Shown here: piece after piece, positions 47,300 through 64,000 of the stretch
Position numbering within the stretch: the stretch's first letter is position 1
Layout of the letters: each line of letters opens with the position of its first letter
Assembly (NCBI GenBank): GCA_963675945.1
Contig: OY780932.1
Span: 1,640,503-1,704,502, forward strand
Length of the DNA: 64,000 nucleotides
Reading direction: 5' to 3'
Source: Planctomycetota bacterium
GTDB taxonomy: Bacteria > Planctomycetota > SZUA-567
Program-made: the position numbers and the translations under genes
The notes under the pieces: model-generated
Database searches by the model: none
Seen by the model: only the letters and a program-made list of their open reading frames with translations
Told to the model about the DNA's origin: nothing

Positions 47300-47314
47300 C
47301 TGGGAGGGTTATAG

Positions 47315-48979: not shown

Positions 48980-49121
48980 CCGGTTATTCATAGATTAATG
49001 CAAATCAATAGGTTTCAGCCGCCGGTGCGTGAAATATCAGGCATCGGGGCTCGCGCTTGTCTACTCTTATCATATTAGTAAAAAAGTTATTAAAACTACT
49101 TTTGTAACTTGACTAAGCACT

Positions 49122-50363
49122 TTGACGGGGTATACTCCAGGTATTATGCTTAAAAATGAAAAGGGCAGATCGCTCAAACAAAGTAACAGGTATATAATTC
49201 TCAACACCCTGCGTGGGGTGCAGGATATCTCTATAGCCGGGTTGGCGCGATTTACCGAACTGAGTAAACCAACGATTAAGAAGGTGTTGGATCACTTTAT
49301 TGAGCAGGGGCTGGTATGTGAAGTTGGGAAGGGCAGCTCTACCGAGGAGGGAGGGAAGAGACCGCTACTCTATAGCTTCAACGCGGATTATTCGCGGGTA
49401 ATAGCTATCCATCTGGGGCCGAATTTTATAATTAGCACCTTACTCAATTTTCGGGGTGAAGTAGTCAAATCCGAGTCGGTTGAGCTTGGCGCCGGAGTGA
49501 GCTTTACTGAAGTGATTAATGAGTTGGTAGGGCATATTCATGGCTTCAGTGCGGGGCGAAAAGGCTGTGAAATAAGTGCTATTGTGTTGGCTCTACCCGG
49601 TATTGTCGATCCTGTACAAGGGAGGCTCAGGTATTCGCCTCACTTCGATTCCTGGGAGAGTGTGGAGTTCCGGCGGGAGATTGAGCAGCGTATCGGCAGG
49701 GATATTCCAATCTATGTGGATAATGTCAATCGTTATCAGACATTCGCCGAGATGCATAGCGGCAAGGCGGTCGGGGTGGATAATTTTGCGGTGATCGATG
49801 TGCTGGAGGAAGGGGTCGGCAGTGGTTTGATCCTTGAGGGTAGACTCAAGCACGGCAAACAGAACCTGGCTGGGGAGATCGGACATACCATCGTCAATAC
49901 TGCAGGCGGAGCGGAGTGTATCTGTGGTGGAGTTGGCTGTTTTGAGGCGGAAGTTTCCTGGAAGAACGTTTATCGGCTTATTGAGACGGGGCGGCAGCAG
50001 TATCCGGATTCGGCGCTGTTTCAGCAGGAGCGCTTGAGTCTGCAGAAACTCTTTGATGCGGCCAGAGGCGCAGATAAGCTGGCGCTTATGGTGATGGATA
50101 AGGTGACGACCTATTTTGCCCGTGGCATAAATAACCTGGTGCTGGCGACAGATCCAGAGTTGATAATTATTCAGGGTGTGTATAATGCGGCCGGAGAGGG
50201 TTTTATCCAGCAGATCAAGCATAAGGTTGATAGCTTGTCGCTGGTCTTATTGCGCCGTGATATCAGAATAGTGTTTTCTGATTTCGGGATGGATAGAGGA
50301 ATTCACGGAGCGGGGATGTACTGGATATCGCGGTTCTTCGAAGAGGACAGTCTGTACGAGTAA
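49122..50363 (+). CDS. ROK-family transcriptional regulator (NagC/Mlc/XylR-like)
   Basis: N-terminal wHTH, a sugar-kinase-like domain, and the ROK zinc motif CICGGVGCFE. An alternative start at 49146 is possible. Confidence 0.8.
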   Translation: MTGYTPGIMLKNEKGRSLKQSNRYIILNTLRGVQDISIAGLARFTELSKPTIKKVLDHFIEQGLVCEVGKGSSTEEGGKRPLLYSFNADYSRVIAIHLGPNFIISTLLNFRGEVVKSESVELGAGVSFTEVINELVGHIHGFSAGRKGCEISAIVLALPGIVDPVQGRLRYSPHFDSWESVEFRREIEQRIGRDIPIYVDNVNRYQTFAEMHSGKAVGVDNFAVIDVLEEGVGSGLILEGRLKHGKQNLAGEIGHTIVNTAGGAECICGGVGCFEAEVSWKNVYRLIETGRQQYPDSALFQQERLSLQKLFDAARGADKLALMVMDKVTTYFARGINNLVLATDPELIIIQGVYNAAGEGFIQQIKHKVDSLSLVLLRRDIRIVFSDFGMDRGIHGAGMYWISRFFEEDSLYE

Positions 50364-50492
50364 GGCTCAAGCATGGGCGCGGAAATCTGTCTCTTTGAAC
50401 ACCTGGGGGATAGGAGCGGGATTTTATTGAAATTAATTTATGCTAAATTATTAGTAGTGAGTGGTGTTTGGGTTACAGGAAAGGTAGATATT

Positions 50493-50978
50493 ATGAAGAT
50501 CAAGAGTGTAGAGTTGCAGAGTGCTGAATTTGCGCCTTATGGCGAGATAATGGCCGGAGGTGATCTGGGTGGTTTTACGCCGCTAGGGGCAGATGACGCG
50601 TATACCTATACTAGCACGACCTGTGGGGTGCCAGTAGGCGAGGAGTGCTGCTCGGGGATGCTTATTTGCAAGAATCGGGAGATGGTATTTCAGAAGATGG
50701 AGTATCACGCGCATACCTCGGAGATTCTGGTGGCGCTCAAGAATGATTATGTGCTCTGTGTGGCGCCGAAGAATGCCGAGAAGCCCGAACTGGATAAGCT
50801 CAAGGCGTTCAAGGTAAAGCAGGGAACCGTGTTGGCAATGTCGCAGGCCTGCTGGCACTGGATTCCCTTCCCTCTGGGTACGGAGAATGCCGACGTGTTG
50901 GTTATCTTCAAGGATAAGACCGGCGAGAATGATCTGATATATGCCGATCTGCCGGAACCGGTGGAGGTGGAACTGTAG
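50493..50978 (+). CDS. ureidoglycolate-lyase-like (AllA family) cupin protein
   Basis: The N-terminus MKIKSVELQSAEFAPYGEIM parallels AllA [20 protein letters not shown]. About 161 aa from the internal ATG with RBS AGGAAAGG. Confidence 0.55.
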   Translation: MKIKSVELQSAEFAPYGEIMAGGDLGGFTPLGADDAYTYTSTTCGVPVGEECCSGMLICKNREMVFQKMEYHAHTSEILVALKNDYVLCVAPKNAEKPELDKLKAFKVKQGTVLAMSQACWHWIPFPLGTENADVLVIFKDKTGENDLIYADLPEPVEVEL

Positions 50979-51036
50979 CGCTAGGTTGTTTGGCGTCTGA
51001 AGTTTTTTTCTTTTTGATAGATGAATGGGGTTAATT

Positions 51037-51831
51037 ATGGATCTTAAGCTGAAAGGGAAACAGGTATTTATTACTGGTGGGAGTGTCGGCATCGGACTTG
51101 GTGTAGCCAGAGCCTTTGCGGCAGAGGGAGTTGAAGTGGCGATCTGTGCGCGTAATCAGGAGCGGGTCGAGGCCGAGGCTGAGAAGATAGCGACAGAGTT
51201 CGGGGTCAAGACTCTCGGGATTGCTGCCGATGTGACCAAACCTGAGGATATAGAACGGGCGCGAGCGCGGATTGAGGAGGAGTTCGGCGGTATAGATATC
51301 CTGATTAACAATGCCGGGGTCGGTACCGAAGAGACAATCATGGAGGCACCGGATGAGAAGTGGTATCGGGTCTGGGATCTGCATGTGATGGCGGCGATAC
51401 GCACAGCGAGAGCCTTTATCCCGTATATGCGTAAGCGCGGCGGCGGGGCGATTATCAATACCGCGAGTATCTGTGCCAAGCAGCCGCTCGGGTATGAGCC
51501 GATATATAATGTTACCAAAGCGGCTCTGGTGATGCTCGGTAAATGCCTCTCCAATGAGGTGGTCGGCGATAATATCCGGGTCAATACCATAAGCCCGGGA
51601 TTGGTACTTACTCCTGACTGGCGCAAGACCGCTGGTATTCTCTGTCAGAAGGATGGTATAACCGCGGATGAATTCCTCGATAGAATCGCCGAGGGGAATG
51701 CGCCGATCAAGCGTTTCTCCAGCCCGGAGGAGGTCGCCTATACCTATCTCTTTATGGCGTCAGAGTGCGCAAGCTATACGCTTGGGTCTAACTATTCAGT
51801 GGATGGCGGCTGGCTTCAGGTAACCGACTGA
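51037..51831 (+). CDS. SDR-family oxidoreductase
   Basis: TGGSVGIGLGVARAF cofactor motif, the NNAG motif, and YxxxK with Tyr inside the catalytic region. Confidence 0.75.
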   Translation: MDLKLKGKQVFITGGSVGIGLGVARAFAAEGVEVAICARNQERVEAEAEKIATEFGVKTLGIAADVTKPEDIERARARIEEEFGGIDILINNAGVGTEETIMEAPDEKWYRVWDLHVMAAIRTARAFIPYMRKRGGGAIINTASICAKQPLGYEPIYNVTKAALVMLGKCLSNEVVGDNIRVNTISPGLVLTPDWRKTAGILCQKDGITADEFLDRIAEGNAPIKRFSSPEEVAYTYLFMASECASYTLGSNYSVDGGWLQVTD

Positions 51832-51983
51832 GTAGCAGTTGTGGGTTGCGGTATCTTGAAACGAGTAGGCGTGCTGGGTTAGGCGGCGGGATAATCTCAA
51901 TAAAGCGGTTGTAAAATCTAGGAATTCGGGTAAGATCTGAGTACTTATGGAGATTAGGGTTTTTCTAGGTAGTTGAGGAGTTT

Positions 51984-52226
51984 ATGGATACCAAGACTGA
52001 ATTTGCCAGGCGGCGCAGGCTGATAAGCATAATGCTCTTTGTGATGGCTTGTCTGATGCTCTCGTTGTTCTTTATTCGGATTACGCTCTGGGATGTGATT
52101 GTGGTTATTGTCTCGGCGGTGCTGGTGGCGCTGAGTATGCGCCTCAATCGTTGCCCGGCGTGTAATGCTAAGATCAAGAATGATGAGGCCAAGGAGTGTG
52201 AGAATTGTGGGGCGGAACTGCGCTGA
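51984..52226 (+). CDS. small membrane protein with C-terminal CxxC...CxxC zinc-ribbon
   Basis: 80 aa; two TM helices followed by CPACNAKIKNDEAKECENCGAEL. Confidence 0.4.
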   Translation: MDTKTEFARRRRLISIMLFVMACLMLSLFFIRITLWDVIVVIVSAVLVALSMRLNRCPACNAKIKNDEAKECENCGAELR

Positions 52227-52258
52227 GTTATGTTTTGCCGAGTCGTGATAGTTTACGA

Positions 52259-52288
52259 GAAGGAAAATTGCTTCTGCAATTTTCCTTC
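52259..52288 (+). terminator. terminator hairpin after small zinc-ribbon gene
   Basis: Perfect 13-bp stem gaaggaaaattgc / gcaattttccttc, followed by TTTGCTG. Confidence 0.5.
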
Positions 52289-52306
52289 TTTGCTGATATT
52301 ATAAAT

Positions 52307-52331
52307 CAGCCAGCAACGAAGTTGCTGGCTG
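52307..52331 (-). terminator. terminator hairpin downstream of hcp (minus strand)
   Basis: Stem cagccagcaac / gttgctggctg; on the minus strand it is followed by A/T-rich ATTTATAATA. Confidence 0.4.
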
Positions 52332-52347
52332 TGGCGTTGGAGATTAC

Positions 52348-53952
52348 TTACTTTAATGCGTCGGCGATATCGGCGTCGGCGGTGGTGGTCGGAGCGATAT
52401 TAAAGGTATCTACGAGTACCTGCAGCGCTTCCTGAGTGATAAAGGCGGGCAGGGTTGGCCCGAGTTTGATATTCTTGACTCCGAGGAAGAGGAGGCTGAG
52501 GAGTATGGCCACAGCTTTCTGTTCGTACCAGCTCAGGATGATTGAGAGCGGGAGTTCGTTTACCCCGCAGCCGAAGGCCTGGGCGAGCATGAGGGCACAC
52601 TGGACGGCGGAGTAAGCATCGTTACACTGGCCGATATCGAGCAGTCGGGGCAAGTCGGCGACGCTGCCGAAATCAAGCTTGTTGAAGCGGTACTTGCCGC
52701 AGGCGAGGGTGAGGATGATCGAGTCCTGTGGAACCTTCTCAGCCAGCTCGGTATAGTAGTTTCTGCCGCTCTTGGCGCCGTCACAGCCGCCGATAAGGAA
52801 GAAGTGTTTTACCGCGCCGCTTTTGACCGCTGCGACCACGGCGGGAGCGGCATGCTCCAGGGCGTTGTGGCCGAAACCGATGAGGATCTTCTTCTCCGGG
52901 GCGGTCTCGCTGAAGCCGTCTGCAGCTAGCGCAGCTTCAATGACCGGAGTAAAGTCTTTTTCTGCACCGATGTGCGTGACGCCGTCGAAAGCGACTAGAC
53001 CGGTGGTGAAGATACGCGCGGTGTAGGTGGTAGGCTTCTGAATGCAGTTGGTGGTCATGAGGATGGCACCGGGGAATTCGGCGAATTCCTGCTGCTGATC
53101 CTGCCAGGCGCCGCCGTAATTTCCGGCAAGGTGTGGATATTTCTTGAGTTCGGGGTAGGCCAAGGCGGGTAGCATCTCGCCGTGCGTATAGATATCAATA
53201 CCTTTGCCCGCTGTCTGTTCGAGCAGATCCTTCAAATCCTTGAGGTCATGGCCGGAGACGAGTATGCACTTGCCGGCGCGGGGCGTGACTGCGACCTCAG
53301 TCGGCTCGGGATTGCCATACGCGGTAGTGTTGGCTTTATCCAGGAGTTCCATGGCTTGGAAGTTCAGCTCACCCGTAGCCAGTGCCTGCTCCAGCAGCTT
53401 TTCGACTGAGTCCGGTTCTTCGGCGAGAAAAGCGAGTATCGCGCGGAGTTTAGCGTATACCTCTTCAGCTTCGACCCCGAGTACGCGGGCATGATGGAGG
53501 TAGGCGGCGGCGCCCTTGAGGCCGTAGAAGACTACTTCCTGTAGACCAGCGACGGTGGCACCGTACTTTTTTTGCCTGGCAGTGATGGAGACACTCTCGG
53601 CAGTCTTCACGTTCTGGGTTATATCTGAACTGATAGGGATGTCGATCCCGGTGATAGCGGCAGCGGCAGTCGGCTTGAAGCTGGCGCGCAGATCGGCTCC
53701 GGCGAGGATGAGCTCCTGCATCCGGGATTCTGAGAAGTTCACATTGGTAACGGTGGTAAACAAGGCATCGACCAAGTAACGGCTTACCTCTGTATTATTT
53801 TGGGCAGAATTCTCTGCCAGCCAGGCGAGCCCCTTGGCTACTTCGTTCAGTAGATCCTGCAGCCCGGCGACTGACTCTGACTTTCCGCATACACCCTGCT
53901 TGCTCTGGCAGCCTTGGCAATTGACGGTCTGTTCGCACTGATAACAAAACAT
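52348..53952 (-). CDS. hcp: hydroxylamine reductase / hybrid-cluster protein
   Basis: Starts MFCYQCEQT, the N-terminal Cys cluster of Hcp; 534 aa. Confidence 0.9.
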   Translation of the reverse strand: MFCYQCEQTVNCQGCQSKQGVCGKSESVAGLQDLLNEVAKGLAWLAENSAQNNTEVSRYLVDALFTTVTNVNFSESRMQELILAGADLRASFKPTAAAAITGIDIPISSDITQNVKTAESVSITARQKKYGATVAGLQEVVFYGLKGAAAYLHHARVLGVEAEEVYAKLRAILAFLAEEPDSVEKLLEQALATGELNFQAMELLDKANTTAYGNPEPTEVAVTPRAGKCILVSGHDLKDLKDLLEQTAGKGIDIYTHGEMLPALAYPELKKYPHLAGNYGGAWQDQQQEFAEFPGAILMTTNCIQKPTTYTARIFTTGLVAFDGVTHIGAEKDFTPVIEAALAADGFSETAPEKKILIGFGHNALEHAAPAVVAAVKSGAVKHFFLIGGCDGAKSGRNYYTELAEKVPQDSIILTLACGKYRFNKLDFGSVADLPRLLDIGQCNDAYSAVQCALMLAQAFGCGVNELPLSIILSWYEQKAVAILLSLLFLGVKNIKLGPTLPAFITQEALQVLVDTFNIAPTTTADADIADALK

Positions 53953-54149
53953 AAACTCTCCTTTTTTAGAATGGTAAAGCTTGGTTGCACTGTGAGTGAG
54001 TACTGACCTTACTCTAACCTGAAAAAAAACAACTAGTTATAAATAACCTGAAAATGCGAATAATAAATAACGCTGGGGGTATTTGTTTGTTGCACTCAAC
54101 GGTATTAAAATCTATAATTACAGAGTACATTAATGCTTGAAGAGTTTCC

Positions 54150-54163
54150 TTGACTTAAGTCAA
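54150..54163. promoter_or_regulatory. perfect palindrome TTGACTTAAGTCAA (Crp/Fnr-family-type half-sites) in the hcp / amidotransferase divergent region
   Basis: TTGAC-N4-GTCAA, about 200 bp upstream of the hcp start and about 40 bp upstream of the plus-strand gene start. Confidence 0.4.
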
Positions 54164-54201
54164 TAGTCAGGATTTTTTTTTGATAAAATTAGAAGGTATT
54201 T

Positions 54202-54918
54202 ATGGATACTGTATATATTATCATGCACTCTGAGGCTGAAGATGGAGGCAATATCAGGCTCTGGGCTGCGCAGAGAGGTATTGGAATATGCCCGGTGAGG
54301 ATCTTTGCCGATGAACCGCTACCGGAGGTTGAAGCTGGGGATATGGTGGCGATTATGGGCGGGGCGATGAGCGTCTATGCTACCGGACGTTATCCGTGGC
54401 TCGCCGGGGAGGTGACCTGGCTGCGGGAGGTTATTGAGTCCGAAGTGCCGCTGCTCGGAGTCTGTCTGGGGGCGCAGTTGATTACTCTGGCTTTAGGGGG
54501 GCGGGTAGAGGAGAACTCCTGCCGCGAGGTGGGTCATACTACCATCTGTGTGGTGCCGGGAGGTGAGGTGGGCTCGCTCTTTGTGGATTTGCCCAAGAAG
54601 TTCAGTGCTTTTCAGTGGCATAGTGATGAGTGTATACCGCCGAAGAGCGTACGTCTGTTGGCTAGGTCTCTGCATTGCAAGGTGCAGGCCTTTGAATATA
54701 AAGAATTGGTGCTCGGTATTCAGTTTCATCTGGATTACGACGAAACGGCGGTACGCTATAATTTGGATAATTTCCCGCAGGCACTTGAACCCGGCGAGTC
54801 GGTACAGAGCCGGGAGGAGATACTGGCTGGGCTGGAGAATCTGGTGCAAGGCAGAGAGTACCTGAATCTGCTCCTGGATAGGCTCCTGGCTAGGGCAGGC
54901 AAGGTTAGAAAGAGGTAG
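54202..54918 (+). CDS. class I glutamine amidotransferase-like protein
   Basis: GATase1 fold with the catalytic nucleophile motif GVCLGAQL and a His/Glu region (QFHLDYDE). Confidence 0.7.
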   Translation: MDTVYIIMHSEAEDGGNIRLWAAQRGIGICPVRIFADEPLPEVEAGDMVAIMGGAMSVYATGRYPWLAGEVTWLREVIESEVPLLGVCLGAQLITLALGGRVEENSCREVGHTTICVVPGGEVGSLFVDLPKKFSAFQWHSDECIPPKSVRLLARSLHCKVQAFEYKELVLGIQFHLDYDETAVRYNLDNFPQALEPGESVQSREEILAGLENLVQGREYLNLLLDRLLARAGKVRKR

Positions 54919-54920
54919 GA

Positions 54921-55979
54921 ATGGGATTATTGGAAGAGACGGTTGTACAGCTACAGCCACAGGATGAAACGAAAAGAAAAGAAGCCAAAGAGCGCCTGGA
55001 TAAGCTGGCAATACCGCACTGGTCGCTCGGTAAATTGCAGGATCTGGCACTGGAACTGGCCGGGATGTGCGGGAGTATGACCCCGGCGGTGGCGCGGCGG
55101 GTGGTAATTACCTGTGCGGGCGATCACGGGATTGTCGCCCAAGGGGTGAGTGCATTTCCCAAAGAAGTTACGGTAGAGATGGTGAAGAACTTTCTTCGCC
55201 GCGGGGCGAGTATCAATGCCTTAGCCAAGGTGAGCGGTACCGAGGTGTTGGTCGCAGACTTTGGCGTTGATGCAGACCTCAGTGATCTCGGAGGTGGGCT
55301 TATCGCTAAGAAGGTCGCGCGGGGTACGAAGAATTTTTATGTTGAACCGGCGATGAGTCGGGAAGAGGCGGTGCGGGCTATCGAAGGCGGAATTGAGATA
55401 GTCCAGGATAATCTGGATAAATATGATGTCTTCGCCACCGGCGATATGGGAATTGGTAATACTACGCCTTCGAGCGCGATCTGCGCGGCGTTGACCGGTC
55501 TGCCGGCGCTTGAGGTGACGGGGCGCGGTACCGGGATCGGCGATCCGGCACTTCTGAAGAAGGCCAAGGTGATCGATGAGGCGTTGGCGCGGCGTCAGCC
55601 GGATATTAGTGACGGGTTGGATATTCTGGCCAAGGTCGGTGGTTTTGAGATAGGGGGGATTGCCGGGATAATTCTCGGTGCGGCCGCGGCGCGCCGGCCG
55701 GTGGTGGTCGACGGTTTTATCTCTACCGCTGGAGCGATGATTGCTGCGACGCTAAATCCTCTGGCCAAGGAGTATATGATCTCCGCGCATAAGAGCGTGG
55801 AACCGGGGCATATTCAGATGCTGAAATACCTGGGTCTTGATCCGTTGCTTGATTTGGATTTCAGACTCGGGGAAGGCACCGGCTCGGCGGTCTGTATGGG
55901 ACTCCTTGACGCGGCGGTAGCGGTGCTTACAGACATTATGACCTTTGAAGAGGCGGCGGTCAGTACCCGTATAGATTGA
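54921..55979 (+). CDS. cobT: nicotinate-nucleotide--dimethylbenzimidazole phosphoribosyltransferase
   Basis: GDMGIGNTTPSSAI signature; 352 aa. Confidence 0.85.
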   Translation: MGLLEETVVQLQPQDETKRKEAKERLDKLAIPHWSLGKLQDLALELAGMCGSMTPAVARRVVITCAGDHGIVAQGVSAFPKEVTVEMVKNFLRRGASINALAKVSGTEVLVADFGVDADLSDLGGGLIAKKVARGTKNFYVEPAMSREEAVRAIEGGIEIVQDNLDKYDVFATGDMGIGNTTPSSAICAALTGLPALEVTGRGTGIGDPALLKKAKVIDEALARRQPDISDGLDILAKVGGFEIGGIAGIILGAAAARRPVVVDGFISTAGAMIAATLNPLAKEYMISAHKSVEPGHIQMLKYLGLDPLLDLDFRLGEGTGSAVCMGLLDAAVAVLTDIMTFEEAAVSTRID

Positions 55980-56017
55980 GTACCTAGATCTACTTTGTAC
56001 GGAAAGGATGGAGGCAG

Positions 56018-56839
56018 ATGTATCAGGAGAATGTGTTACCGGCGTTTGGTCTGGTCTTATTCGCTGGTCTGTCGACCGGTATCGGTAGTACCCTGGCGTT
56101 CTTCGCCAAGAAGACCAATACCAAATTTCTTTCGATTGCTCTGGGGTTCAGTGCAGGAGTGATGCTCTATGTCTCCTTTGTTGAGATCTTTCAGAAGGCT
56201 CGAGTCGCGCTGACCCAGCCGGAGGTGTTTGGAAACTTCTGGGGAACCTGGGCGACGGTCGGGGCGTTCTTTGCCGGGATGGTGCTGATTGCGCTGATCG
56301 ATAAGCTGGTGCCAACGGTTGAGAATCCGCATGAGATGCATGACGTGCGGGAGATGACCCCGAAGCAGGTCGAGGAGCATAAGTCCAAGCGGCTGATGCG
56401 GATGGGGTTGATGTCGGCGTTGGCGATCGGTATTCACAACTTTCCCGAGGGGCTCGCGACCTTTGCTGGAGCGCTACAGGATCCGGCCGCAGGTATTGCT
56501 ATTGCCGTGGCGATTGCAATACATAATATTCCTGAAGGAATTGCGGTATCGGTGCCGGTCTACTACGCGACGGGGGATAAGAAGAAGGCCTTTATCTACT
56601 CCTTTGCCTCCGGTCTGTCTGAACCGATCGGGGCGCTGCTCGGGTACTTCATCTTTATGCGCTGGTTCTCACCGGCGATGTTTGGGATGATCTTTGCCGG
56701 GGTGGCTGGAATTATGGTCTTTATCTCACTTGATGAACTGCTGCCTACAGCTGAAAAATATGCTGAGCACCATCTCTGTATCTACGGGCTGGTCGCGGGT
56801 ATGGCGGTGATGGCGCTGAGCCTGCTGCTCTTCTTGTAA
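56018..56839 (+). CDS. zupT: ZIP-family zinc transporter ZupT
   Basis: 8 TM helices and HNFPEG / HNIPEG metal-binding motifs; 273 aa. Confidence 0.85.
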   Translation: MYQENVLPAFGLVLFAGLSTGIGSTLAFFAKKTNTKFLSIALGFSAGVMLYVSFVEIFQKARVALTQPEVFGNFWGTWATVGAFFAGMVLIALIDKLVPTVENPHEMHDVREMTPKQVEEHKSKRLMRMGLMSALAIGIHNFPEGLATFAGALQDPAAGIAIAVAIAIHNIPEGIAVSVPVYYATGDKKKAFIYSFASGLSEPIGALLGYFIFMRWFSPAMFGMIFAGVAGIMVFISLDELLPTAEKYAEHHLCIYGLVAGMAVMALSLLLFL

Positions 56840-57019
56840 TATTTTCCACTATAACTGGTTAGGTTTTGCCTGATTGTGGTTTGGCTGGATACTGGGGTTG
56901 GGGTGTGGAGTGGCTGGAAATATTGTTAGTAAAAAATTAGGAAGGCTATTGACATTAGCGGGTAATCCCGTATTATTCTCTTGTTAACATATTGCTTGAG
57001 TGGTATGTTGATGCTAGAA

Positions 57020-57097
57020 GTTCCCATCGTCTAGCCTGGTCCAGGACGACAGATTCTCAGTCTGTAAACAGGGGTTCGAATCCCCTTGGGAATGCCA
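57020..57097 (+). tRNA. tRNA-Glu (anticodon CTC)
   Basis: Acceptor stem GTTCCCA/TGGGAAT, D-arm GTCTAGCCTGGTCCAGGAC, anticodon stem ACAGA/TCTGT with loop TTCTCAG, T-loop TTCGAAT, CCA encoded. Confidence 0.8.
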
Positions 57098-57363
57098 AAT
57101 ATTAAGCTCTGTATACCTAGTGTATATAGGGCTTTTTTTGTCGGTATACATAGGATCTGAGATACTTGCGCTACTCAGTGTATTTATTTCATTTTTGTTC
57201 GAATGGGTAGACGTGAACCCGCTCCTCTTGGGCAATTTTTGGTCAATATTTGGCCAGTTTGACATATGTATCACCATTTCTCAAAGTACTAATTGTGCTG
57301 TCTACTTTAAAATTTACAATTATGCTAAAAGGGTAATTCTACCCAGCACAAATTTTAATTAAA

Positions 57364-57400
57364 GAAAAGTCTTGACCATAGCGTATAGCTACTATACACT
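57364..57400. promoter_or_regulatory. imperfect palindrome gaccatagcgtatagctactatacactatggtc overlapping the MarR start, candidate autoregulatory operator
   Basis: 14-bp arms with one mismatch around the centre TAGCTACTA; a related palindrome lies at 58112..58138. Confidence 0.45.
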
Positions 57401-57862
57401 ATGGTCATGCTTATTAATAAAAGAAATAACAATCGCATAAGTTATGACCTTTTAACTGTAACTTGGAAACTATTTGAATCTGATAAAAAGCTACGGAATT
57501 TCGGTACAGACACGATATTATATGAAGCAGAAATTCATATGATTATGTATATTAAGGATAATCCTGATTTACATGTTTCTGGTTTGGCAAAAAAGATAGG
57601 TGTTACTAAAGGCGCTGTTTCTCAGATAGTCACAAAGCTTGTAAAAAAAGGCATGGTGGTAAAAACTAAAGACGAAGCAAATTTATCGCGAACTTTACTA
57701 CGTTTAACAGGTAAAGGCGAGGTTGCTTATAAGGTGCATGAAAAAATGCATAATGAATTTGATCTAGGAGTAGAAGAAATACTGACAGATGCAACTGTTG
57801 AACAACTAGAATTTCTGCACGATTTCTTAAGAAAGCTTGAAAACTATATAGATGAAAATTAA
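57401..57862 (+). CDS. MarR-family transcriptional regulator
   Basis: wHTH region VSGLAKKIGVTKGAVSQIVTKLVKKGMV; 153 aa. Confidence 0.8.
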   Translation: MVMLINKRNNNRISYDLLTVTWKLFESDKKLRNFGTDTILYEAEIHMIMYIKDNPDLHVSGLAKKIGVTKGAVSQIVTKLVKKGMVVKTKDEANLSRTLLRLTGKGEVAYKVHEKMHNEFDLGVEEILTDATVEQLEFLHDFLRKLENYIDEN

Positions 57863-57892
57863 GGTTCATGACAAGATAACTTTGCTTAATCT

Positions 57893-58106
57893 CCTATAAA
57901 GGGTTCTTACGAATTATCTTCAAAACCAGTTTATACAAATCATCATCTCGATGATTAAAACGAAATTCGCACTCTTTTAAGTGCAAGTAAAAAGTCTTTT
58001 TGCTAATACCACGATACTTACTTAATCTGGTTTTAGCTATAGACCAAAAGTTTTCAATACCATTAATATGATTTTTGCCTTTTGCAAATTCACTATTAGA
58101 GTGGTT
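57893..58106 (-). pseudogene. IS1595-family transposase, C-terminal fragment only (about 70 aa)
   Basis: Minus-strand translation gives NSEFAKGKNHINGIENFWSIAKTRLSKYRGISKKTFYLHLKECEFRFNHRDDDLYKLVLKI, which matches the conserved IS1595 transposase C-terminus. There is no N-terminal part and a stop immediately upstream. Confidence 0.65.
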
Positions 58107-58111
58107 TTAAA

Positions 58112-58138
58112 CGTAGCGTTTAGCTACTAAACGCTTGG
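58112..58138. promoter_or_regulatory. palindrome aaacgtagcgtttagctactaaacgct related to the MarR-promoter palindrome
   Basis: It shares the AGCGT(A/T)TAGCTACTA(T/A)ACNC core with 57364..57400 and lies between the IS fragment and the MATE gene. Confidence 0.4.
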
Positions 58139-58262
58139 AGGATTCAAATGGATGTAAATGAGAGCAAAATTAAAATCACAGTATGAGGGATGATTTCTTG
58201 AAAATATCATCAGCGCTTTTCAGAAATTAAGCTTACCTGCAATCACATGAGAATGTAATTAA

Positions 58263-59544
58263 ATTTTTTTAAACGTCATTAATGCCTTATATAATCTCGT
58301 TGATGCTTATTTTGTAGGTGGGTGGGCTAGGCACTAGTCAAATTGCAGCAGTATCAATCGTTTTTCCTCTGGTTCAAATTATTATTGGTATAGGCCTAAC
58401 CTTTGGAAGTGGCGCCGCCATGTCAATTTCTCGAAAACTTGGAGCAAAAGAATATACTAAAGCAAGTGTAACAGCTTCAACTGCAATTTTTTACAGTATA
58501 GTTAGTGGAGTTATTATTACGGCGATTTCGCTACTGTTTATAGATAAAATTTTAGTCTCTCTTGGAGCATCAGAAACAATTTTACCATACGCCCGTAGTT
58601 ATGGTATGATATATCTTGCTGGATGCATACTGCATATCTTCTGTATTGCTATGAATAATATAGTCCTTTCAGAAGGAGCTGCTAAGATGACAATGTTTGC
58701 TATGATTTTAGGTGGTGGATTAAATACAATACTTGATCCAATATTAATTTATACATTTGATTTAGGGATTTCGGGGGCGGGTATCGCCACAGTCTTATCT
58801 CAAGGCATAACATTTTTAGTATTTCTCTGGTATATTATAGCTAAAAAGGGCATATTAAAAATAAATTGGAGATTATTTAACTTTGAACGAAGTACAATAA
58901 TAGAGATATTAAAGTTTGGAATACCCGTATTACTATTACAAGTTTTTTCAGGTATGGCTATGGGATTAACAAATACGGCAGCGAGTTCTTATGGTGATTC
59001 CGCTGTCGCCGCTATGGGAATTGTCGCTAGAGTTATTGCTTTGGCTTGCTATATTGTATTTGGTTATGTAAAAGGGTTTCAACCAATAGCTGGGTATAAC
59101 TATGGAGCGAAAAACTATAAAAGACTGAATCAGGCTATTTCTATTTCGTTAAAATGGACTTTCATATACTGCGTGCTTGTAACAGTAGTATTTATTACTT
59201 TTCCTGCAAACATCATGCATCTATTCAGTAAGAGCGACCAAAGGTTGATATCACTTGGTATTCAAACACTTCAAGCGAATGCATATGTATTTATATTCTT
59301 TGGAGCTATTATGGTATATTCAACATTATTCCTTGCTCTTGGTAATGCTAAGGAAGGGAGTATTTTAAGCTTCGCCCGTCAAGGTATTTTCTTTATACCG
59401 GCAATATTTTTACTACCATATTTCTTCGGATTAAATGGAGTTATTTATGCACAGCCTTTTGCTGATTTATTAGCTTTTTTCCTAACATTGTGCTATGCTT
59501 TACCACTTCATAAGAAGCTTAAATTAGCATATGGAAAAATATAA
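58263..59544 (+). pseudogene. MATE-family efflux transporter, 5'-truncated and frameshifted
   Basis: Frame A (58263..58334) reads IFLNVINALYNLVDAYFVGGWARH*. The main ORF from 58318 continues GGLGTSQIAAV..., so the conserved LYNLVD.YFVG.LG motif is split by an extra GTGG/TGGG repeat at 58317..58326. About 20 N-terminal residues are missing, and stops in all frames lie upstream. Confidence 0.65.
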
Positions 59545-60306
59545 CTAAATAGTTGGATTTATTAATAGCAACGAAGAGCAGCGATGCCTGCTGTGCGGCA
59601 TCCGTCTCAGGCATTCCTCCTGCCCTAATCTACCCAATCGCTCGCACTACTACATTTTTCGCATCAAATGTCAGGTTTTATATCTGCCTGTATCGCGCCT
59701 TAAGGCTTTGAGTTTATCTGAGATACGCCTTGAACCATAGAAGAGATGCTTCAGATATATCTAATCAATTTCACGTTTCAGCAGATTATCTCCTTCATGA
59801 TTTTTTACTGAAGCATAATGATAAGCAGATCTAGATATACCGAGTAATTCACATTGTCTGCTGATTGAAATATTTACAGACAGATTATTGATCAGTGCCT
59901 TGCGTTCAGAGAATCCCAAGCTCATCAGATTTTTTTTAAGCTAGTCTACCTCAATTTTTAGGCGACCGATTTCTTCGAATAACTTTGCTTCGTAATGTTC
60001 TTGCTGCTGCTTCATTTTCTTTCTCTTGCCGAAGAAAATATCTGGCAGATTATTCAAAAGCTCCTTCTTCCATTGCCGCACCTGATTTGGTTGGACATCG
60101 TATTTAGATGATATTTCAGATAATGGCTTGTCATCTTTTGTCGCTTCAAGTGCTACTTTTGCATTAAACTTTGCTGTGTACTGCTTAACCGGCTTCACAA
60201 GTAAGGTGTAGATATTTCTGCTCCATAGGCTCTCCTTGAGTAGATGAAATAGTGTGTTTCTGGCTAAATATATATCGACCACCTTATTATTTCTTCTTTT
60301 ACTCAA
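59545..60306 (-). mobile_element. IS3-family insertion sequence remnant (orfA-like HTH gene 59941..60306 plus frameshifted/truncated orfB 5' part 59761..59925 and below)
   Basis: orfA contains KQYTAKFNAKVALEA...LSEISSKYDVQPNQVRQWKK. The orfB fragments translate to MSLGFSERKALINNLSVNISISRQCELLGISRSAYHY and YGSRRISDKLKALRR. There is too little DNA for an integrase core. Confidence 0.6.
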
Positions 60307-60427
60307 GTGCTGTATTTGGAATTAGAATCGACCAAGTAATAATTTGACTAAAGGTTAATTTTGTAATATATTATCAGGGGTGTGGAACTGTGTTCGTCAT
60401 TGTAGAATAATCATCAGGAGATAAAAA

Positions 60428-61432
60428 ATGTTGGAAAAATTAGTATTTGCGGTTATGGCTGTTGCTATAGGTTTACTGGGAATAAATAACTTGAGTGCGG
60501 GCGAGCCAGTAACTCTGTCTTTCTCTTCGCAAAGTGTACCAAATGATGCACATACTCAGGCTATGTATAAATTTAAAGAAGAGGTAGAGAAAATTTCCAA
60601 TGGAGAGATCACGGTAGATGTCTATGACTCTGGGCAGTTGTTTACTCAGGATGGTGAGCAGACGGCAATTATGCGTGGTTCGGTAGATATGATTTACTCC
60701 AGTGCTCCATGGATTGCACAGCAAATACCCTATATCTCTATGTTGGGCGGTGTATATACCTTTGCCGGGTATGACCATATGAACAAGGTGATGACTGGAG
60801 ATATCGGTAAGAAGATATTTGAAGATGTTACAAAACAGATAGGAATCAGACCTCTTACTGCATTCTACCTCGGTACTCGTCAGTTGCTTCTTCGTGATAT
60901 CGGCAAGGAGGTAAGATCTCCAGAGGATATGAAAGGGGTAAAACTTCGCGTACCTAACTCTCCTACTTGGATTGCTCTGGGTAAGGCTCTGGGTGGTAAC
61001 CCGACTCCAATGAGTTTTGGTGAGGTATACCTTGCTCTTAAGACAGGCGTTGCTGATGGGCAGGACAATCCTATGCCGACCGATAAAAATGCTAAGTTTT
61101 ACGAAGTATCAAAATACCTGATCCTTACAAATCATGTTGTCGATACTGTCTGGCCTACAATTAATGAAGCAAAGTGGAATACCCTCACAGATCAGCAGAA
61201 AGAGTGGGTAATGACTGCTCTTGCAAAAGCAAAAGAGCTATGTGATTCCACCAATATCTCTGCTGAAGCAGGGCTTGTAGACTTCTTCAAGAATAACGGC
61301 ATCGTCGTTATTGAAGATCCAGACATTGAGGCATTCATGAGTTATGCAAAGAATTCATATCAGACTGAGAGTAAGGATATCTCTAAAGACTGGGACTGGA
61401 AACTTTATGAGCAAATTCAAGACGCTAAATAG
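60428..61432 (+). CDS. TRAP transporter substrate-binding protein (DctP/SiaP family)
   Basis: Signal peptide plus a DctP-family fold; 334 aa. Confidence 0.8.
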   Translation: MLEKLVFAVMAVAIGLLGINNLSAGEPVTLSFSSQSVPNDAHTQAMYKFKEEVEKISNGEITVDVYDSGQLFTQDGEQTAIMRGSVDMIYSSAPWIAQQIPYISMLGGVYTFAGYDHMNKVMTGDIGKKIFEDVTKQIGIRPLTAFYLGTRQLLLRDIGKEVRSPEDMKGVKLRVPNSPTWIALGKALGGNPTPMSFGEVYLALKTGVADGQDNPMPTDKNAKFYEVSKYLILTNHVVDTVWPTINEAKWNTLTDQQKEWVMTALAKAKELCDSTNISAEAGLVDFFKNNGIVVIEDPDIEAFMSYAKNSYQTESKDISKDWDWKLYEQIQDAK

Positions 61433-61575
61433 TCGTCTGTAGTTTTTTGCTGCAGATAATTTGATTATGCCACTCTGGAGTGCAGTGTAATACTGCGCTC
61501 ACTGAGTGGTATCTTTGTAAAAAGTGGTTTGAAGTCTGAAATAAAATAACCAGTATCTATAAGGTTTTACGCATA

Positions 61576-62058
61576 ATGAAAGTAATAAAAATAATAGCAA
61601 AATGTATAGCGGATTTATTTGAGCTATACTTGCCGTGTACTACTTTTTGCATAATGTTTTTAGCATTTATTACGCAAATTGTCAGCCGGTATATCTTTAA
61701 TCACCCAGTCTCATGGGCATTTGAAGTTACAACCTTTGGTTTTGTTTGGACTGTTCTCTTAAGCGCGCTATATGCAAAGAGAACGAGAAGCCATGTCAAG
61801 TTTTCAATTATATATGACTTATTCTCACCCAAGACTAAATTATGGGTCAGGCTCTGTGGAAATTCACTTATTGTCTTTTCATTTGTTGCTGCTGTATATC
61901 CAGCGTGGGAGTACATCATGTTTATGGGCTATAAGAAATCAACTATATTGAATATTCCATACAGCATACTGTATTTTCCATTTATTATCTTCCTTGTCGG
62001 GATGATACTCAGGTTTTCAATTGATATTATCAACGATCTCAAAACAATCAGAAAATAG
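61576..62058 (+). CDS. TRAP transporter small permease (DctQ family)
   Basis: 160 aa, 4 TM helices, gene order P-Q-M. Confidence 0.7.
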   Translation: MKVIKIIAKCIADLFELYLPCTTFCIMFLAFITQIVSRYIFNHPVSWAFEVTTFGFVWTVLLSALYAKRTRSHVKFSIIYDLFSPKTKLWVRLCGNSLIVFSFVAAVYPAWEYIMFMGYKKSTILNIPYSILYFPFIIFLVGMILRFSIDIINDLKTIRK

Positions 62059-62138
62059 TAATATAAATTGTCCGTGAGTAAGCTAGTCGCTAGCGACTGG
62101 TTTATGATTATGTTTATGAAAAGAAGCAAGGAACAAAA

Positions 62139-63434
62139 ATGAATTTTCCATTAATTATATTTTTTGTCAGCTTTGCTATGATATTTGCACTGCGCCTTCC
62201 GATTGCTATTGGAATGGTGACATCCAGTGTGCTCTATTTCATGGTCTCTAATGCTCCGGGGACAGGTATCGATATGGTCGCAGAGAAGATCATGACAAAC
62301 CTGGAAGCTAATTATATTATCATAGCAGTCCCGCTATTTATCTTTATGGCTCAAATTATGAACTCTGGAAAGATTACTGATATGATCTTTCAGTTTGCTA
62401 ATGCTGTAGTAGGGCACCGTAGAGGCGGGCTAGGGCATGTGAATGTTATCGCTTCAATCATCTTCTCGGGAATGACTGGCTCAGCGGTTGCTGATGCCTC
62501 AGGACTTGGGATGATGGAGATCAAAGCGATGAAGAAGAATGGCTATGATGATGGCTTTAGCTGTGCTATTACCGCGGCATCTGCTACTATAGGACCGATC
62601 TTCCCGCCAAGTATTCCCATGGTGTTTTACGCCATGCTCTCCGGCGCGTCCATTGGTAACCTCTTTCTGGCTGGGATGGTTCCAGGGTTACTTATTGGAG
62701 TTGCTCTTATGGTATATATAGCCTGGATTGCGGATAAAAGAGATTATCCGAGAGGTATAAAAGTCGCTTTTAGAGATCTTATCGCAATTACAATAAAAGC
62801 ATTTCCCGCACTCTTTTCGGTAGTTGTGCTCTTAGGAGGGATCTACTCTGGTATTGTTACTCCTACTGAAGCAGGAGCATTAGCTTCGGCGTATGCAATA
62901 CTTGTGGCGGTGCTCGTTTACAGAGTTATGGGTTGGAATTATCTAGGACTTGCTGTAAAGGAAACAGTTAGAACGACAGGTGTAGTGTCTATTATTGTAG
63001 GATGTACATATACATTCTCTTACATTATAGCTAGAGAGCATATCCCGCAGTATGTAGCAGCTCTTTTGCTGGACGTAACGACGAATAAGTATCTGCTCTT
63101 GTTATTAATAAATATTATATTCCTTGTTCTGGGAATGTTTATAGATACAGCAGTGATTACTGTTGTCTTTATCCCTATGGTACTTCCTCTAGTAAATATG
63201 CTTGGCATCGACTTGGTGCACTTTGGTGTAATTGTGGTAATCAATATGATGATAGGCCTATCTACGCCACCGTTCGGGATGCTGCTATTTATAGTATCAG
63301 GGATATCAGATACTTCACTAAGCAGAGTAATTAAAGAGGTTATGCCTATGATTATTGCGATGCTTGTAGTGCTGTTGCTGGTAACTTATATACCACAGAT
63401 TGTGTTGTTCTTGCCGAATCTACTAGGGTTTTAA
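62139..63434 (+). CDS. TRAP transporter large permease (DctM family)
   Basis: 431 aa; paralogue of 21704..22996. Confidence 0.85.
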   Translation: MNFPLIIFFVSFAMIFALRLPIAIGMVTSSVLYFMVSNAPGTGIDMVAEKIMTNLEANYIIIAVPLFIFMAQIMNSGKITDMIFQFANAVVGHRRGGLGHVNVIASIIFSGMTGSAVADASGLGMMEIKAMKKNGYDDGFSCAITAASATIGPIFPPSIPMVFYAMLSGASIGNLFLAGMVPGLLIGVALMVYIAWIADKRDYPRGIKVAFRDLIAITIKAFPALFSVVVLLGGIYSGIVTPTEAGALASAYAILVAVLVYRVMGWNYLGLAVKETVRTTGVVSIIVGCTYTFSYIIAREHIPQYVAALLLDVTTNKYLLLLLINIIFLVLGMFIDTAVITVVFIPMVLPLVNMLGIDLVHFGVIVVINMMIGLSTPPFGMLLFIVSGISDTSLSRVIKEVMPMIIAMLVVLLLVTYIPQIVLFLPNLLGF

Positions 63435-63471
63435 TTAATATTATGATTGTTTTATATGAAAGGTTGGATAG

Positions 63472-64000
63472 ATGGATATTGATAGAATTTCACCTGATGG
63501 TATGTGGGTGACAATGATTACGCCGTTTACTGATGAAGGTAAGGTTGACTACGAATCATTGAAGCGTCTGGTTGAATGGTATATTGAAGGTGGGCTTGAT
63601 GGTATCTTTGCAATTTGCCAATCAAGTGAGATCTTTTTCTTAACACCTGAAGAGAAAATAAAGATCCTGAAAGCAACTATAAAAGCAGCTGACGGGAGAA
63701 TACCTATTGTTGCCTCCGGGCATACTAGTGATAATGCTAAAAAGCAACTTGATGAACTCAAGGCAGTCGCTGATACCGGAGTAGAGGATATTGTGCTCAT
63801 AGTAAATAGATTTGCCAAGGTAGATGAGAATGATCATATCTGGAAGAATAACCTTGATAATCTTGTTGATAACCTTGATAGTTCGGTTGCTCTAGGTATG
63901 TATGAGTGCCCTTATCCCTATCACAGGTTCCTCAGTGAGGACAATATTAAGCATATCATTGCCAATGAAAGGTTTGTGTACTTCAAAGATACTTGTTGCT
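63472..64000 (+). CDS. DapA-family (dihydrodipicolinate synthase / N-acetylneuraminate lyase-like) aldolase, 5' part only; gene runs off window end
   Basis: MDIDRISPDGMWVTMITPFTDEGKVDYESLKRLVEWYIEGGLDGIFAICQSSE is the typical DapA/NanA N-terminus. RBS GAAAGG. The ORF is unterminated in the window. Confidence 0.7.
   Translation, partial: MDIDRISPDGMWVTMITPFTDEGKVDYESLKRLVEWYIEGGLDGIFAICQSSEIFFLTPEEKIKILKATIKAADGRIPIVASGHTSDNAKKQLDELKAVADTGVEDIVLIVNRFAKVDENDHIWKNNLDNLVDNLDSSVALGMYECPYPYHRFLSEDNIKHIIANERFVYFKDTCC

What the first reader, a model, noticed from the sequence alone, without database searches (positions are those of the whole stretch)
57364..59544. MarR regulator and its MATE pump separated by an IS1595 fragment; MATE gene 5'-truncated and frameshifted; two related palindromes mark a likely MarR regulon
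The palindromes at 57364..57400 (overlapping the marR start) and at 58112..58138 (upstream of the MATE gene) share the core AGCGT(A/T)TAGCTACTA. The conserved MATE motif LYNLVDAYFVG-GLG is split across two frames by an extra GTGG at 58317..58326. The first ~20 residues are missing, and stops lie upstream in all frames. A ~70-aa IS1595 transposase C-terminal fragment lies between marR and the pump, and an IS3 remnant abuts the pump's 3' end. This looks like a decaying drug-efflux module whose regulator may still be active.
Basis: seen in the sequence. Interest (0 to 1): 0.5.

Follow-up and report, generated by a model that had tools for sequence, protein, structure and literature searches.

The report
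Broken MarR–MATE efflux cassette, regulator intact
A small, horizontally acquired drug-efflux cassette (a repressor gene plus the pump it controls) whose pump gene has been knocked out by an insertion-sequence hit and a tight cluster of small insertions, while the repressor and both of its DNA binding sites remain intact; this is an ordinary kind of gene decay.

Summary
Both palindromes are real (57380-57400 and 58115-58135). They match a motif, GTWTAG-N3-CTAWAC, found at the same two positions in 30 related marR loci, so they are very probably MarR operators. marR is intact. Its homologous start is ATG 57407, not 57401, and it is probably translated from a leaderless mRNA.

A 244-nt IS1595 3' fragment (57863-58106, minus strand) begins directly after the marR stop codon. 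A truncated IS3 element abuts the cassette's right boundary at about 59660.

The MATE gene is not 5'-truncated. Its ribosome-binding site (58137-58141), ATG (58148) and first 44 codons are all present. They are disrupted by five window-specific insertions (+5, +6, +2, +21, +4 nt), giving three frameshifts and two in-frame stops. Removing them restores a 452-codon frame 91% identical to an intact ortholog.

The remaining 408 codons have no indels and dN/dS of 0.13, so inactivation looks recent and localised rather than slow erosion. An assembly artefact is not excluded.

The cassette lies in a low-GC island that starts 42 nt after tRNA-Glu. It resembles S. aureus mepRA in layout but is not orthologous. 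Interest is low to moderate.

The parts
57020..57097 (+). tRNA-Glu(CTC). Collinearity with a related genome (L004) ends at 57139, and GC falls from about 55% to about 33%, marking the left edge of a genomic island.
57326..59662 (+). The marR-MATE cassette as delimited by homology to the intact locus L003. 57326-57861 is 92% nt identical and 58115-59662 is 87% identical.
57372..57400 (+). Predicted marR promoter: -35 TTGACC (57372-57377), 17-nt spacer, -10 TACACT (57395-57400).
   Evidence: The same geometry is seen in 30/30 related loci.
57373..57407 (.). Operator 1: palindrome TGACCATAGCGTATAG-CTA-CTATACACTATGGTCA. The core GTATAG-N3-CTATAC is at 57383-57397. It fills the -35/-10 spacer and overlaps the -10.
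57407..57862 (+). marR, 151 aa, intact. The start is homologous to those of the orthologs and lies 6 nt after the -10, so the mRNA is probably leaderless. The ATG at 57401 that the ORF list uses is window-specific.
57863..58106 (-). IS1595-family 3' fragment: terminal inverted repeat GGTTCATGACAAG at 57863, directly after the marR stop codon, plus the last 70 codons of the transposase. The 5' two-thirds of the element are deleted. The deletion junction GTGGTT|TTAAACGT lies in the T-run of the old spacer.
58115..58135 (.). Operator 2: perfect palindrome AGCGTTTAG-CTA-CTAAACGCT, immediately upstream of the MATE ribosome-binding site.
58137..58150 (+). MATE ribosome-binding site GGAGG (58137-58141) and original start codon ATG (58148-58150).
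58148..59544 (+). MATE (DinF-subfamily) pseudogene. Window-specific insertions are at 58177-58181 (CACAG), 58195-58200 (TTCTTG), 58221-58222 (CA), 58248-58275 (9 nt replaced by 30 nt, net +21, with in-frame TGA and TAA) and 58324-58327 (4-nt GTGG-type duplication).
58318..59544 (+). Still-open 408-codon remainder, called as a protein in public data (P0001). It lacks TM1 and the conserved TM1 aspartate. It has no indels relative to L003 and dN/dS of 0.13.
59655..60310 (-). IS3-family remnant: orfA (HTH_Tnp_1) and about 90 codons of orfB with an in-frame stop. It is truncated where it meets the cassette's right boundary. Both end coordinates are approximate.

Best explanation
**What it is.** This is a 2.3-kb marR-MATE efflux cassette carried in a low-GC island next to tRNA-Glu.

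**How intact relatives are built.** A MarR-family repressor is made from a leaderless transcript. Its promoter is TTGACA, 17 nt, TAYACT, then ATG 6 nt later. The promoter is overlaid by a palindromic operator, GTWTAG-N3-CTAWAC. One or two further copies of the operator lie just upstream of the MATE gene. The inferred mechanism is that one MarR dimer per site represses both its own gene and the pump until a ligand releases it, as in S. aureus mepRA.

**What happened in this window.**
- An IS1595 element inserted directly after the marR stop codon.
- That element later lost its 5' two-thirds together with part of the spacer.
- The first 180 nt of the MATE gene acquired five small insertions, giving three frameshifts and two in-frame stops. 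These abolish synthesis of TM1 and of the conserved TM1 aspartate.

The pump is therefore dead. marR, its promoter and both operators remain intact, so the repressor is probably still made and now regulates only itself.

**Shown versus inferred.**
- Shown: the sequence anatomy, the five lesions measured against three intact orthologs, conservation of the operator and promoter geometry, and the identity of the IS elements.
- Inferred: MarR binding to the sites, the leaderless start, the order of events, and that inactivation is recent.
For: - **Intact orthologs.** L003 (MarR 89% aa identical; MATE P0121 91% identical after repair), L001 and L002 have marR followed after a gap of 50-65 nt by a 451-452-aa MATE.
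- **Lesions are window-specific.** All five insertions are absent from the three orthologs. Deleting them restores a 452-codon frame.
- **Operator motif.** It scores at least 11/12 in 29 of 30 loci upstream of marR (10/12 in L015). It occurs again between marR and MATE. Nowhere else in 224 kb does it occur, apart from five extra sites in the marR-downstream flank of the same loci.
- **Window sites.** Only two exact sites occur in the 64-kb window. None was found in 100 shuffles of the longer 21-nt pattern, and the 2-mismatch matches to the core are at chance level.
- **Promoter geometry.** The -35 is TTGACA in 25 of 30 loci. An ATG lies 5-7 nt after the -10 in 29 of 30 loci.
- **marR is intact.** dN/dS is 0.18, with no excess of lineage-specific changes.
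- **Missing catalytic residue.** The DinF-BH D40 equivalent (D41 of P0121) lies upstream of the 408-aa ORF.
- **IS elements.** The IS1595 and IS3 assignments rest. The IS1595 end GGTTCATGAC resembles GGGTCATGAC of an annotated element.
- **Island boundary.**
- **Functional precedent.** mepRA has one operator at mepR and two at mepA, with GTTAG-N4-CTAAC repeats (PMC3936728). CdmR-MATE is a second precedent (PMC12657311).
Against: - No binding, transcription or read-level data exist.
- The five lesions are all insertions and all lie in 13% of the gene. This is atypical of bacterial pseudogene decay, which is deletion-biased (my own knowledge), and could indicate a local assembly problem.
- Operator 2 has only a weak promoter-like context in the window, so it is unclear whether MATE was transcribed from its own promoter or from the marR promoter.
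- The MarR is not close to any characterised regulator. Its best matches, FabT and AdcR, score far below their family cut-offs.
Confidence: 0.75

Rival explanations
1. The cluster of insertions in the MATE 5' end is an assembly or consensus artefact, for example from merging reads of strains with and without the IS. In that case the pump gene is intact in the organism.
For: - All five lesions are insertions confined to 150 nt.
- The rest of the gene shows no sign of relaxed constraint.
- The 5' region shows no clear excess of substitutions: 12 window-specific against 8 L003-specific.
- The contig names of related records (ctg...c / ctg...l) suggest long-read metagenome assemblies.
Against: - The insertions are 2-21 nt long and not homopolymer-type.
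- The neighbouring 11 kb aligns to L004 with only 10 gap openings in 9.45 kb, so assembly quality is otherwise normal.
- The IS fragment junction and both operators are clean.
Confidence: 0.12
2. The lesions reflect ordinary gradual neutral erosion of a long-dead pseudogene, and their clustering is chance.
For: IS fragments on both sides show that the cassette has been through several degenerative events.
Against: - If indels fell at random along 1397 nt, the chance that all five land in the first 183 nt is about 4e-5 (my arithmetic).
- The other 408 codons have no indels, no stops, dN/dS of 0.13 and symmetric lineage-specific changes, 12 against 12.
Confidence: 0.06
3. The 408-codon remainder is still a functional, selected gene. 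It would be a TM1-less MATE derivative expressed from the promoter-like TTTAAA-N16-TATAAT (58268-58295) created by the 21-nt insertion.
For: - The ORF stays open across 1227 nt of AT-rich DNA with dN/dS of 0.13.
- A 10/12 promoter match lies just upstream.
Against: - The GTG at 58318 has no Shine-Dalgarno sequence.
- The product would lack TM1 and the aspartate equivalent to DinF-BH D40.
- The low dN/dS is equally explained by recent inactivation.
- Promoter-like matches in this region are at chance frequency: 16 found against 12.2 expected.
Confidence: 0.04
4. The palindromes act as RNA hairpins (terminator or attenuator, or a structure sequestering the RBS) rather than as protein operators.
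For: - Site 1 folds at -20.8 kcal/mol with z = -5.6.
- Site 2 of L002 folds at -15.5 kcal/mol with z = -4.1.
Against: - Site 1 lies between the -35 and the predicted transcription start, so it would not be transcribed.
- Site 2 hairpins are weak in the window (z = -1.3) and in L003 (-5.5 kcal/mol, z = -0.1).
- The two sites share sequence, not merely pairing potential. The conserved letters are GTWTAG/CTAWAC, and the 3-nt centre varies freely.
Confidence: 0.03

Closest known systems
Staphylococcus aureus mepRA(B): MarR-family MepR with MATE pump MepA
   Same: - The gene order is the same: a MarR-family repressor gene immediately upstream of, and co-oriented with, a MATE pump gene.
- One palindromic operator overlaps the repressor's own promoter, and one or two more lie in front of the pump gene.
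- The half-sites are similar in type: GTTAG-N4-CTAAC in mepRA (PMC3936728) against GTWTAG-N3-CTAWAC here.
   Different: - It is not orthologous. No MepR chain appears among PDB hits with E of 0.01 or better.
- The MATE scores 158-172 bits against the MepA equivalog cut-off of 850.
- Half-site length and spacing differ.
- marR here appears leaderless.
- The pump is a pseudogene in this window.
Clostridioides difficile CdmR-MATE operon
   Same: A MarR-family gene sits 16 bp upstream of, and is presumably co-transcribed with, a MATE gene. Two palindromic or pseudo-palindromic sites are bound by the dimer (PMC12657311).
   Different: In C. difficile both sites lie upstream of cdmR. Here one site is upstream of marR and the other lies between marR and MATE. 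Sequence relatedness was not tested.
DinF-BH (Bacillus halodurans BH2163; PDB 4LZ6, 5C6O), a DinF-subfamily MATE
   Same: It is the best solved-structure match of the intact ortholog P0121 (E = 2.6e-64, residues 15-436). The TM1 motif LYNxVD with the aspartate is conserved.
   Different: The window copy cannot encode TM1 or that aspartate in frame. The substrate is unknown.
E. coli MarR / marRAB
   Same: It shares the family fold (winged helix-turn-helix; Pfam PF01047) and autorepression through palindromes overlapping the -35/-10 region (family knowledge).
   Different: The similarity is very distant: 19 bits against NCBIfam PRK11512. E. coli MarR controls an activator (MarA), not an adjacent MATE pump.

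Membership tests
MarR family transcription regulators | Winged helix-turn-helix domain matching Pfam MarR/MarR_2 above the gathering score | tested here: met
   PF12802 scores 43.9 bits (cut-off 27) and PF01047 scores 40.9 bits (cut-off 24.6).
MarR family transcription regulators | Palindromic operator overlapping the regulator's own promoter (autoregulation) | tested here: met
   This is met at sequence level only. The palindrome 57373-57407 fills the -35/-10 spacer. The arrangement is conserved in 30/30 loci. Binding itself was not tested.
MarR family transcription regulators | Ligand-responsive release from DNA | not testable with these tools
   This needs EMSA or ITC with candidate ligands.
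MepR (S. aureus) orthologs | Sequence similarity to MepR and the operator signature GTTAG-N4-CTAAC | tested here: not met
   No MepR chain appears among 23 PDB hits with E of 0.01 or better. The operator is GTWTAG-N3-CTAWAC, against the MepR signature given.
MATE family (TIGR00797 / PF01554) | Profile match above the curated cut-off | tested here: met
   TIGR00797 scores 185.2 bits for the 408-aa ORF and 204.5 bits for P0121 (cut-off 147.4). PF01554 scores 132.4 bits with two stretches.
MATE family (functional transporter) | Uninterrupted 12-TM reading frame including TM1 with its conserved aspartate | tested here: not met
   Three frameshifts and two in-frame stops lie between ATG 58148 and 58330. 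The D41/D40 equivalent lies upstream of the open ORF. The feature is met in the orthologs L003, L001 and L002.
MepA equivalog (NF000131) | Score at or above 850 bits | tested here: not met
   157.7 bits for the window ORF and 172.1 bits for P0121.
IS1595 family insertion sequence | DDE_Tnp_IS1595 transposase domain | tested here: met
   PF12762 scores 28.3 bits (cut-off 27), covering profile positions 102-153 of 153. The fragment is 69% identical to an annotated IS1595 transposase.
IS1595 family insertion sequence | Complete element: both terminal inverted repeats, full transposase, 8-bp target duplication | tested here: not met
   Only one end (GGTTCATGACAAG at 57863) and 70 codons remain. 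The other end and the duplication are gone.
IS3 family insertion sequence | orfA with HTH_Tnp_1 followed by orfB (DDE) | tested here: inconclusive
   orfA scores 24.5 bits (cut-off 24.1) and is 50% identical to annotated IS3 transposases. Only about 90 orfB codons remain, with an in-frame stop, and there is no DDE domain.
tRNA-linked genomic island | Break of synteny and shift in composition next to a tRNA gene; integrase and att repeats | tested here: inconclusive
   Synteny with L004 ends at 57139 and GC drops from 55% to 33%. No integrase or direct repeat of the tRNA 3' end was found before the window ends at 64000.

The most novel reading that the evidence does not exclude
The five small insertions may be the scar of a single complex, partly templated repair or template-switch event, coupled to the deletion that truncated the IS1595 copy 45-225 nt away. 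They would then not be independent mutations. The 21-nt insertion reads AATTAA + T7 + AAACGT. That is the last 6 nt of marR, followed by the ancestral marR-MATE spacer as preserved in relatives. It is also what the lost IS target-duplication junction would have looked like. If so, this would be a natural example of a localised insertion 'shower' at an IS-mediated breakpoint in a bacterium.
Probability: 0.2. Interest if true: 0.5.

Novelty: new member of a known kind. Interest (0 to 1): 0.25.

Why it matters
**Practical.** Public gene calls list the 408-aa ORF as a MATE protein (P0001). It should be treated as a pseudogene, and the annotated marR start is probably 6 nt too early.

**Biological.** The comparison defines an uncharacterised but widespread marR-MATE cassette family. 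Its promoter-operator layout is very stereotyped: TTGACA, 17 nt, TAYACT, ATG 6 nt later, with operator GTWTAG-N3-CTAWAC. This gives a ready-made, testable operator and a clear candidate for leaderless translation of a regulator.

**Open curiosity.** The insertion-only cluster next to an IS breakpoint bears on mutational mechanisms only if read-level data confirm it.

Tried and rejected
- **Source contig.** Looking it up by exact protein (P0001, ZupT) failed, as it is not on record. I therefore could not inspect more of the island or other copies of the IS.
- **Genome scan.** The genome-contig scan with the MarR alignment found only the contigs already in hand, L006 = L003 and L007 = L001.
- **P0006 locus (L008).** It has ABC transporter genes upstream and no marR, so it was not informative.
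- **Local templates for the insertions.** I searched for 8-14-mers on both strands. Only 8-mers turned up, at chance level, plus one 10-mer, TTTTAAACGT (58105 and 58267), with about 0.6 expected by chance. This is suggestive only.
- **Gene conversion from a paralog.** The second MATE in L003 (12395-13762) is not the donor, because its 5' end bears no resemblance to the inserted sequences.
- **Rfam.** Nothing was found in 54000-64000 except the tRNA.
- **Other IS1595 copies.** None is present in the window.
- **Further operator sites.** Relaxed matches in the window are at chance level.
- **Programmed frameshifting.** Rejected, because there are three shifts plus two in-frame stops.
Full report
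**1. What is in the sequence**

The region follows a tRNA-Glu(CTC) gene at 57020-57097. GC content drops there from about 55% to about 33%.

A related genome fragment, L004, is collinear with the window from 46191 to 57139 at about 93% nt identity. It then diverges and does not resume before the window ends. Everything from 57140 onwards is therefore an acquired island.

Within the island, 57326-57861 and 58115-59662 are 92% and 87% identical to locus L003, a contig labelled 'MAG: Planctomycetota bacterium'. This delimits a marR-MATE cassette of about 2.3 kb. In L003 the cassette sits in a different genomic context.

**2. The palindromes**

AGCGTATAGCTACTATACACT (57380-57400) and AGCGTTTAGCTACTAAACGCT (58115-58135) are the only matches to the shared pattern in 64 kb, even when up to 3 mismatches are allowed. 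None occurred in 100 shuffles. The first extends to 16-nt arms at 57373-57407.

Both sites occupy the same positions in three intact orthologous loci (L003, L001, L002) and in a GC-rich relative, L009. A metagenome scan with the MarR alignment added 26 loci with 48-59% MarR identity.

Across all 30 loci that retain upstream sequence:
- A GTWTAG-N3-CTAWAC site lies just upstream of marR. It scores at least 11/12 in 29 loci and 10/12 in L015.
- One or two further sites lie between marR and the downstream gene, which is MATE where tblastn could see it.
- In 224 kb of locus sequence the motif occurs nowhere else, apart from five extra sites further downstream in the same loci.

The conserved letters are the half-sites, and the 3-nt centre varies freely. 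Changes are often symmetric, for example GTATAG/CTATAC against GTTTAG/CTAAAC.

The upstream site is embedded in a fixed promoter geometry:
- The -35 hexamer is TTGACA in 25 of 30 loci.
- The spacer is 17 nt.
- The -10 hexamer is TAYACT-like.
- An ATG that opens the marR frame lies 6 nt later in 24 of 30 loci, and 5-7 nt later in 29 of 30.

I infer three things:
- The sites are DNA operators for the MarR dimer.
- marR is transcribed as a leaderless mRNA.
- The homologous start in the window is ATG 57407. The ATG at 57401 abuts the -10 and has no counterpart in L003.

An RNA-hairpin reading is unlikely. Site 1 would not be transcribed, and site 2 folds weakly in the window and in L003. Relaxed searches find no further sites in the window above chance, so the local 'regulon' consists of these two sites.

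**3. The regulator**

The protein matches Pfam MarR and MarR_2 above the cut-offs. It is 89% identical to the L003 protein and the same length. Between the window and L003, dN/dS is 0.18, with 3 lineage-specific changes in the window against 7 in L003. It therefore looks intact.

It is not close to any characterised MarR. The best PDB and NCBIfam matches are FabT, AdcR and BilQ, all far below their equivalog cut-offs. No MepR chain is hit.

**4. The pump gene**

The open ORF 58318-59544 (408 aa) is a MATE and is present in public protein sets as P0001.

Its cluster mate P0121 (452 aa, L003), together with P0002 and P0003 (451 aa, L001 and L002), shows what the intact gene looks like.

DNA alignment shows that the window retains three features:
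- the ribosome-binding site GGAGG (58137-58141);
- the start codon ATG (58148);
- recognisable sequence for all 44 N-terminal codons.

Relative to all three orthologs, the window carries five extra segments:

| Position | Change |
|---|---|
| 58177-58181 | CACAG (+5) |
| 58195-58200 | TTCTTG (+6) |
| 58221-58222 | CA (+2) |
| 58248-58275 | 9 nt replaced by 30 nt (net +21), bringing in-frame TGA and TAA |

Deleting the five segments gives a 1359-nt frame of 452 codons that is 91% identical to P0121. One residual TGA remains at codon 30, at the edge of the 21-nt event.

So the gene is not 5'-truncated. It is a pseudogene with three frameshifts and two in-frame stops concentrated in its first 180 nt.

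The best solved-structure match of the intact ortholog is DinF-BH. The aspartate in the LYNxVD motif of TM1 (D41 of P0121, aligned to D40 in the 5C6O numbering) lies upstream of the open ORF. From my knowledge of DinF-BH and PfMATE, that residue is needed for proton-coupled transport. The 408-aa product would also lack TM1. I therefore regard it as non-functional.

**5. The pattern of decay is unusual**

The evidence on timing and distribution is as follows:
- The other 408 codons have no indels relative to L003, dN/dS of 0.13, and equal lineage-specific amino-acid changes, 12 against 12.
- marR has no indels.
- In the damaged 5' segment, substitutions are only mildly asymmetric: 12 window-specific against 8 L003-specific, four of them adjacent to the 21-nt event.
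- The baseline between the window and L004 is 10 gap openings in 9.45 kb, with insertions and deletions mixed.
- If five indels fell at random along 1397 nt, the chance that all land in the first 183 nt is about 4e-5 (my arithmetic).

Slow uniform erosion is therefore a poor explanation. The lesions look recent and local.

They lie 45-225 nt from the junction where the IS1595 copy was truncated (about 58106). The 21-nt insertion reads AATTAA-TTTTTTT-AAACGT with an A before the T-run. Its parts match as follows:
- AATTAA is the last 6 nt of marR.
- The T7 run matches the spacer of L001 and L003.
- TTTTAAACGT matches the window's own residual spacer (58105-58114).

This is what the marR-stop/spacer junction, or the lost IS target-duplication junction, would have looked like. 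It suggests a templated, complex repair event. However, the exact 10-mer alone is near chance expectation, so I record this as unexplained and not as a finding.

The alternative of a local assembly artefact cannot be excluded without reads. Against it are two points. The insertions are multi-nucleotide and not homopolymeric. The flanking assembly also behaves normally.

**6. The insertion sequences**

*IS1595.* The 70-codon minus-strand fragment matches the C-terminal third of PF12762. It is 69% identical to an annotated IS1595 transposase in a Trichlorobacter lovleyi plasmid.

That element ends in GGGTCATGACTAG / CTAGTCATGACCC and has an 8-bp duplication, TTAAATTA. The window has GGTTCATGACAAG starting at 57863, immediately after the marR stop codon. 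That IS end is therefore intact.

IS-derived sequence stops at about 58106, where it joins the T-run of the old spacer. L003 has 33 nt of spacer in place of the fragment. No other copy of the element is present in the window.

*IS3.* On the right, IS3-family orfA and about 90 codons of orfB, with an in-frame stop, run on the minus strand from about 60310 down to about 59655. They meet the cassette's homology boundary at 59662. The remnant abuts the cassette, not the stop codon of the pump.

**7. Comparison with known systems**

The layout and inferred logic are those of S. aureus mepRA. There, a MarR-family repressor is autoregulated through one inverted repeat at its promoter and represses the adjacent MATE gene through two sites, with GTTAG-N4-CTAAC repeats (PMC3936728). 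C. difficile CdmR-MATE is similar (PMC12657311).

Membership in the MepR or MepA families fails the sequence tests, and the half-site differs. This is a new member of a known kind, present here as a decayed copy.

**8. Verdict**

The claim of a missing 5' end is wrong, and the damage is more extensive than one 4-nt duplication.

The comparative evidence for the operators and for a leaderless marR is strong. The pseudogene itself is ordinary. The insertion-only cluster beside an IS breakpoint is the only unusual feature, and it needs read-level confirmation.

Noticed in passing
window 57140-64000: A low-GC island begins 42 nt after tRNA-Glu. Besides the cassette it carries an apparently intact TRAP transporter: DctP 60428-61432, DctQ 61576-62058 and a 431-aa DctM-like ORF at 62139-63434. 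No integrase is seen before the window ends.
   Followed up: partly
L003 9343-9372: A tRNA 3'-end-like sequence, GGTTCGATTCCCGCCGCCTCCACCA, lies about 27 nt left of the cassette's homology boundary in the intact locus. ARAGORN calls no tRNA there. It may be an att-type remnant. In both genomes, then, the cassette sits at the edge of an integrated element near tRNA sequence.
   Followed up: partly
L003 11825-13762: A second, unrelated marR (SarA/Rot-like)-MATE pair lies convergent to the first, 470 nt downstream. Its 5' end is not the source of the inserted sequences.
   Followed up: partly
window 58268-58295: The 21-nt insertion creates a promoter-like TTTAAA-N16-TATAAT (10/12 match) just upstream of the open 408-codon ORF. 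Promoter-like matches in this AT-rich region are at chance frequency overall.
   Followed up: no
window 58170-58260: The +5 insertion yields AATCACAGTATGAG. The stretch 65 nt downstream reads AATCACATGAGAATG, where orthologs have AATCACAGGGATG. The two sites look as if they exchanged short patches. This may be a template switch or may be chance.
   Followed up: partly
L011 3840; L012/L013 3989/3988; L021/L028 4425/4426: Extra operator-motif matches (at least 11/12) lie 1-2 kb downstream of marR in some distant loci. These may be additional regulated genes in those cassettes.
   Followed up: no
window 20567-20712: This stretch has weak similarity (73% nt over 146 nt; 65% aa over 20 residues) to the IS3 orfA region. 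It may be another IS3-family remnant elsewhere in the window.
   Followed up: no
window 50432 (against L004 about 4414): A 1-nt deletion relative to L004 falls inside or near the start of a ureidoglycolate-lyase-like gene. I did not check whether it is a frameshift or lies upstream of the true start.
   Followed up: no
window 56949-56976: A near-consensus promoter, TTGACA-N16-TATTAT (11/12), lies upstream of tRNA-Glu. A terminator-like hairpin at 57104-57134 lies just after it, still within the region collinear with L004.
   Followed up: no
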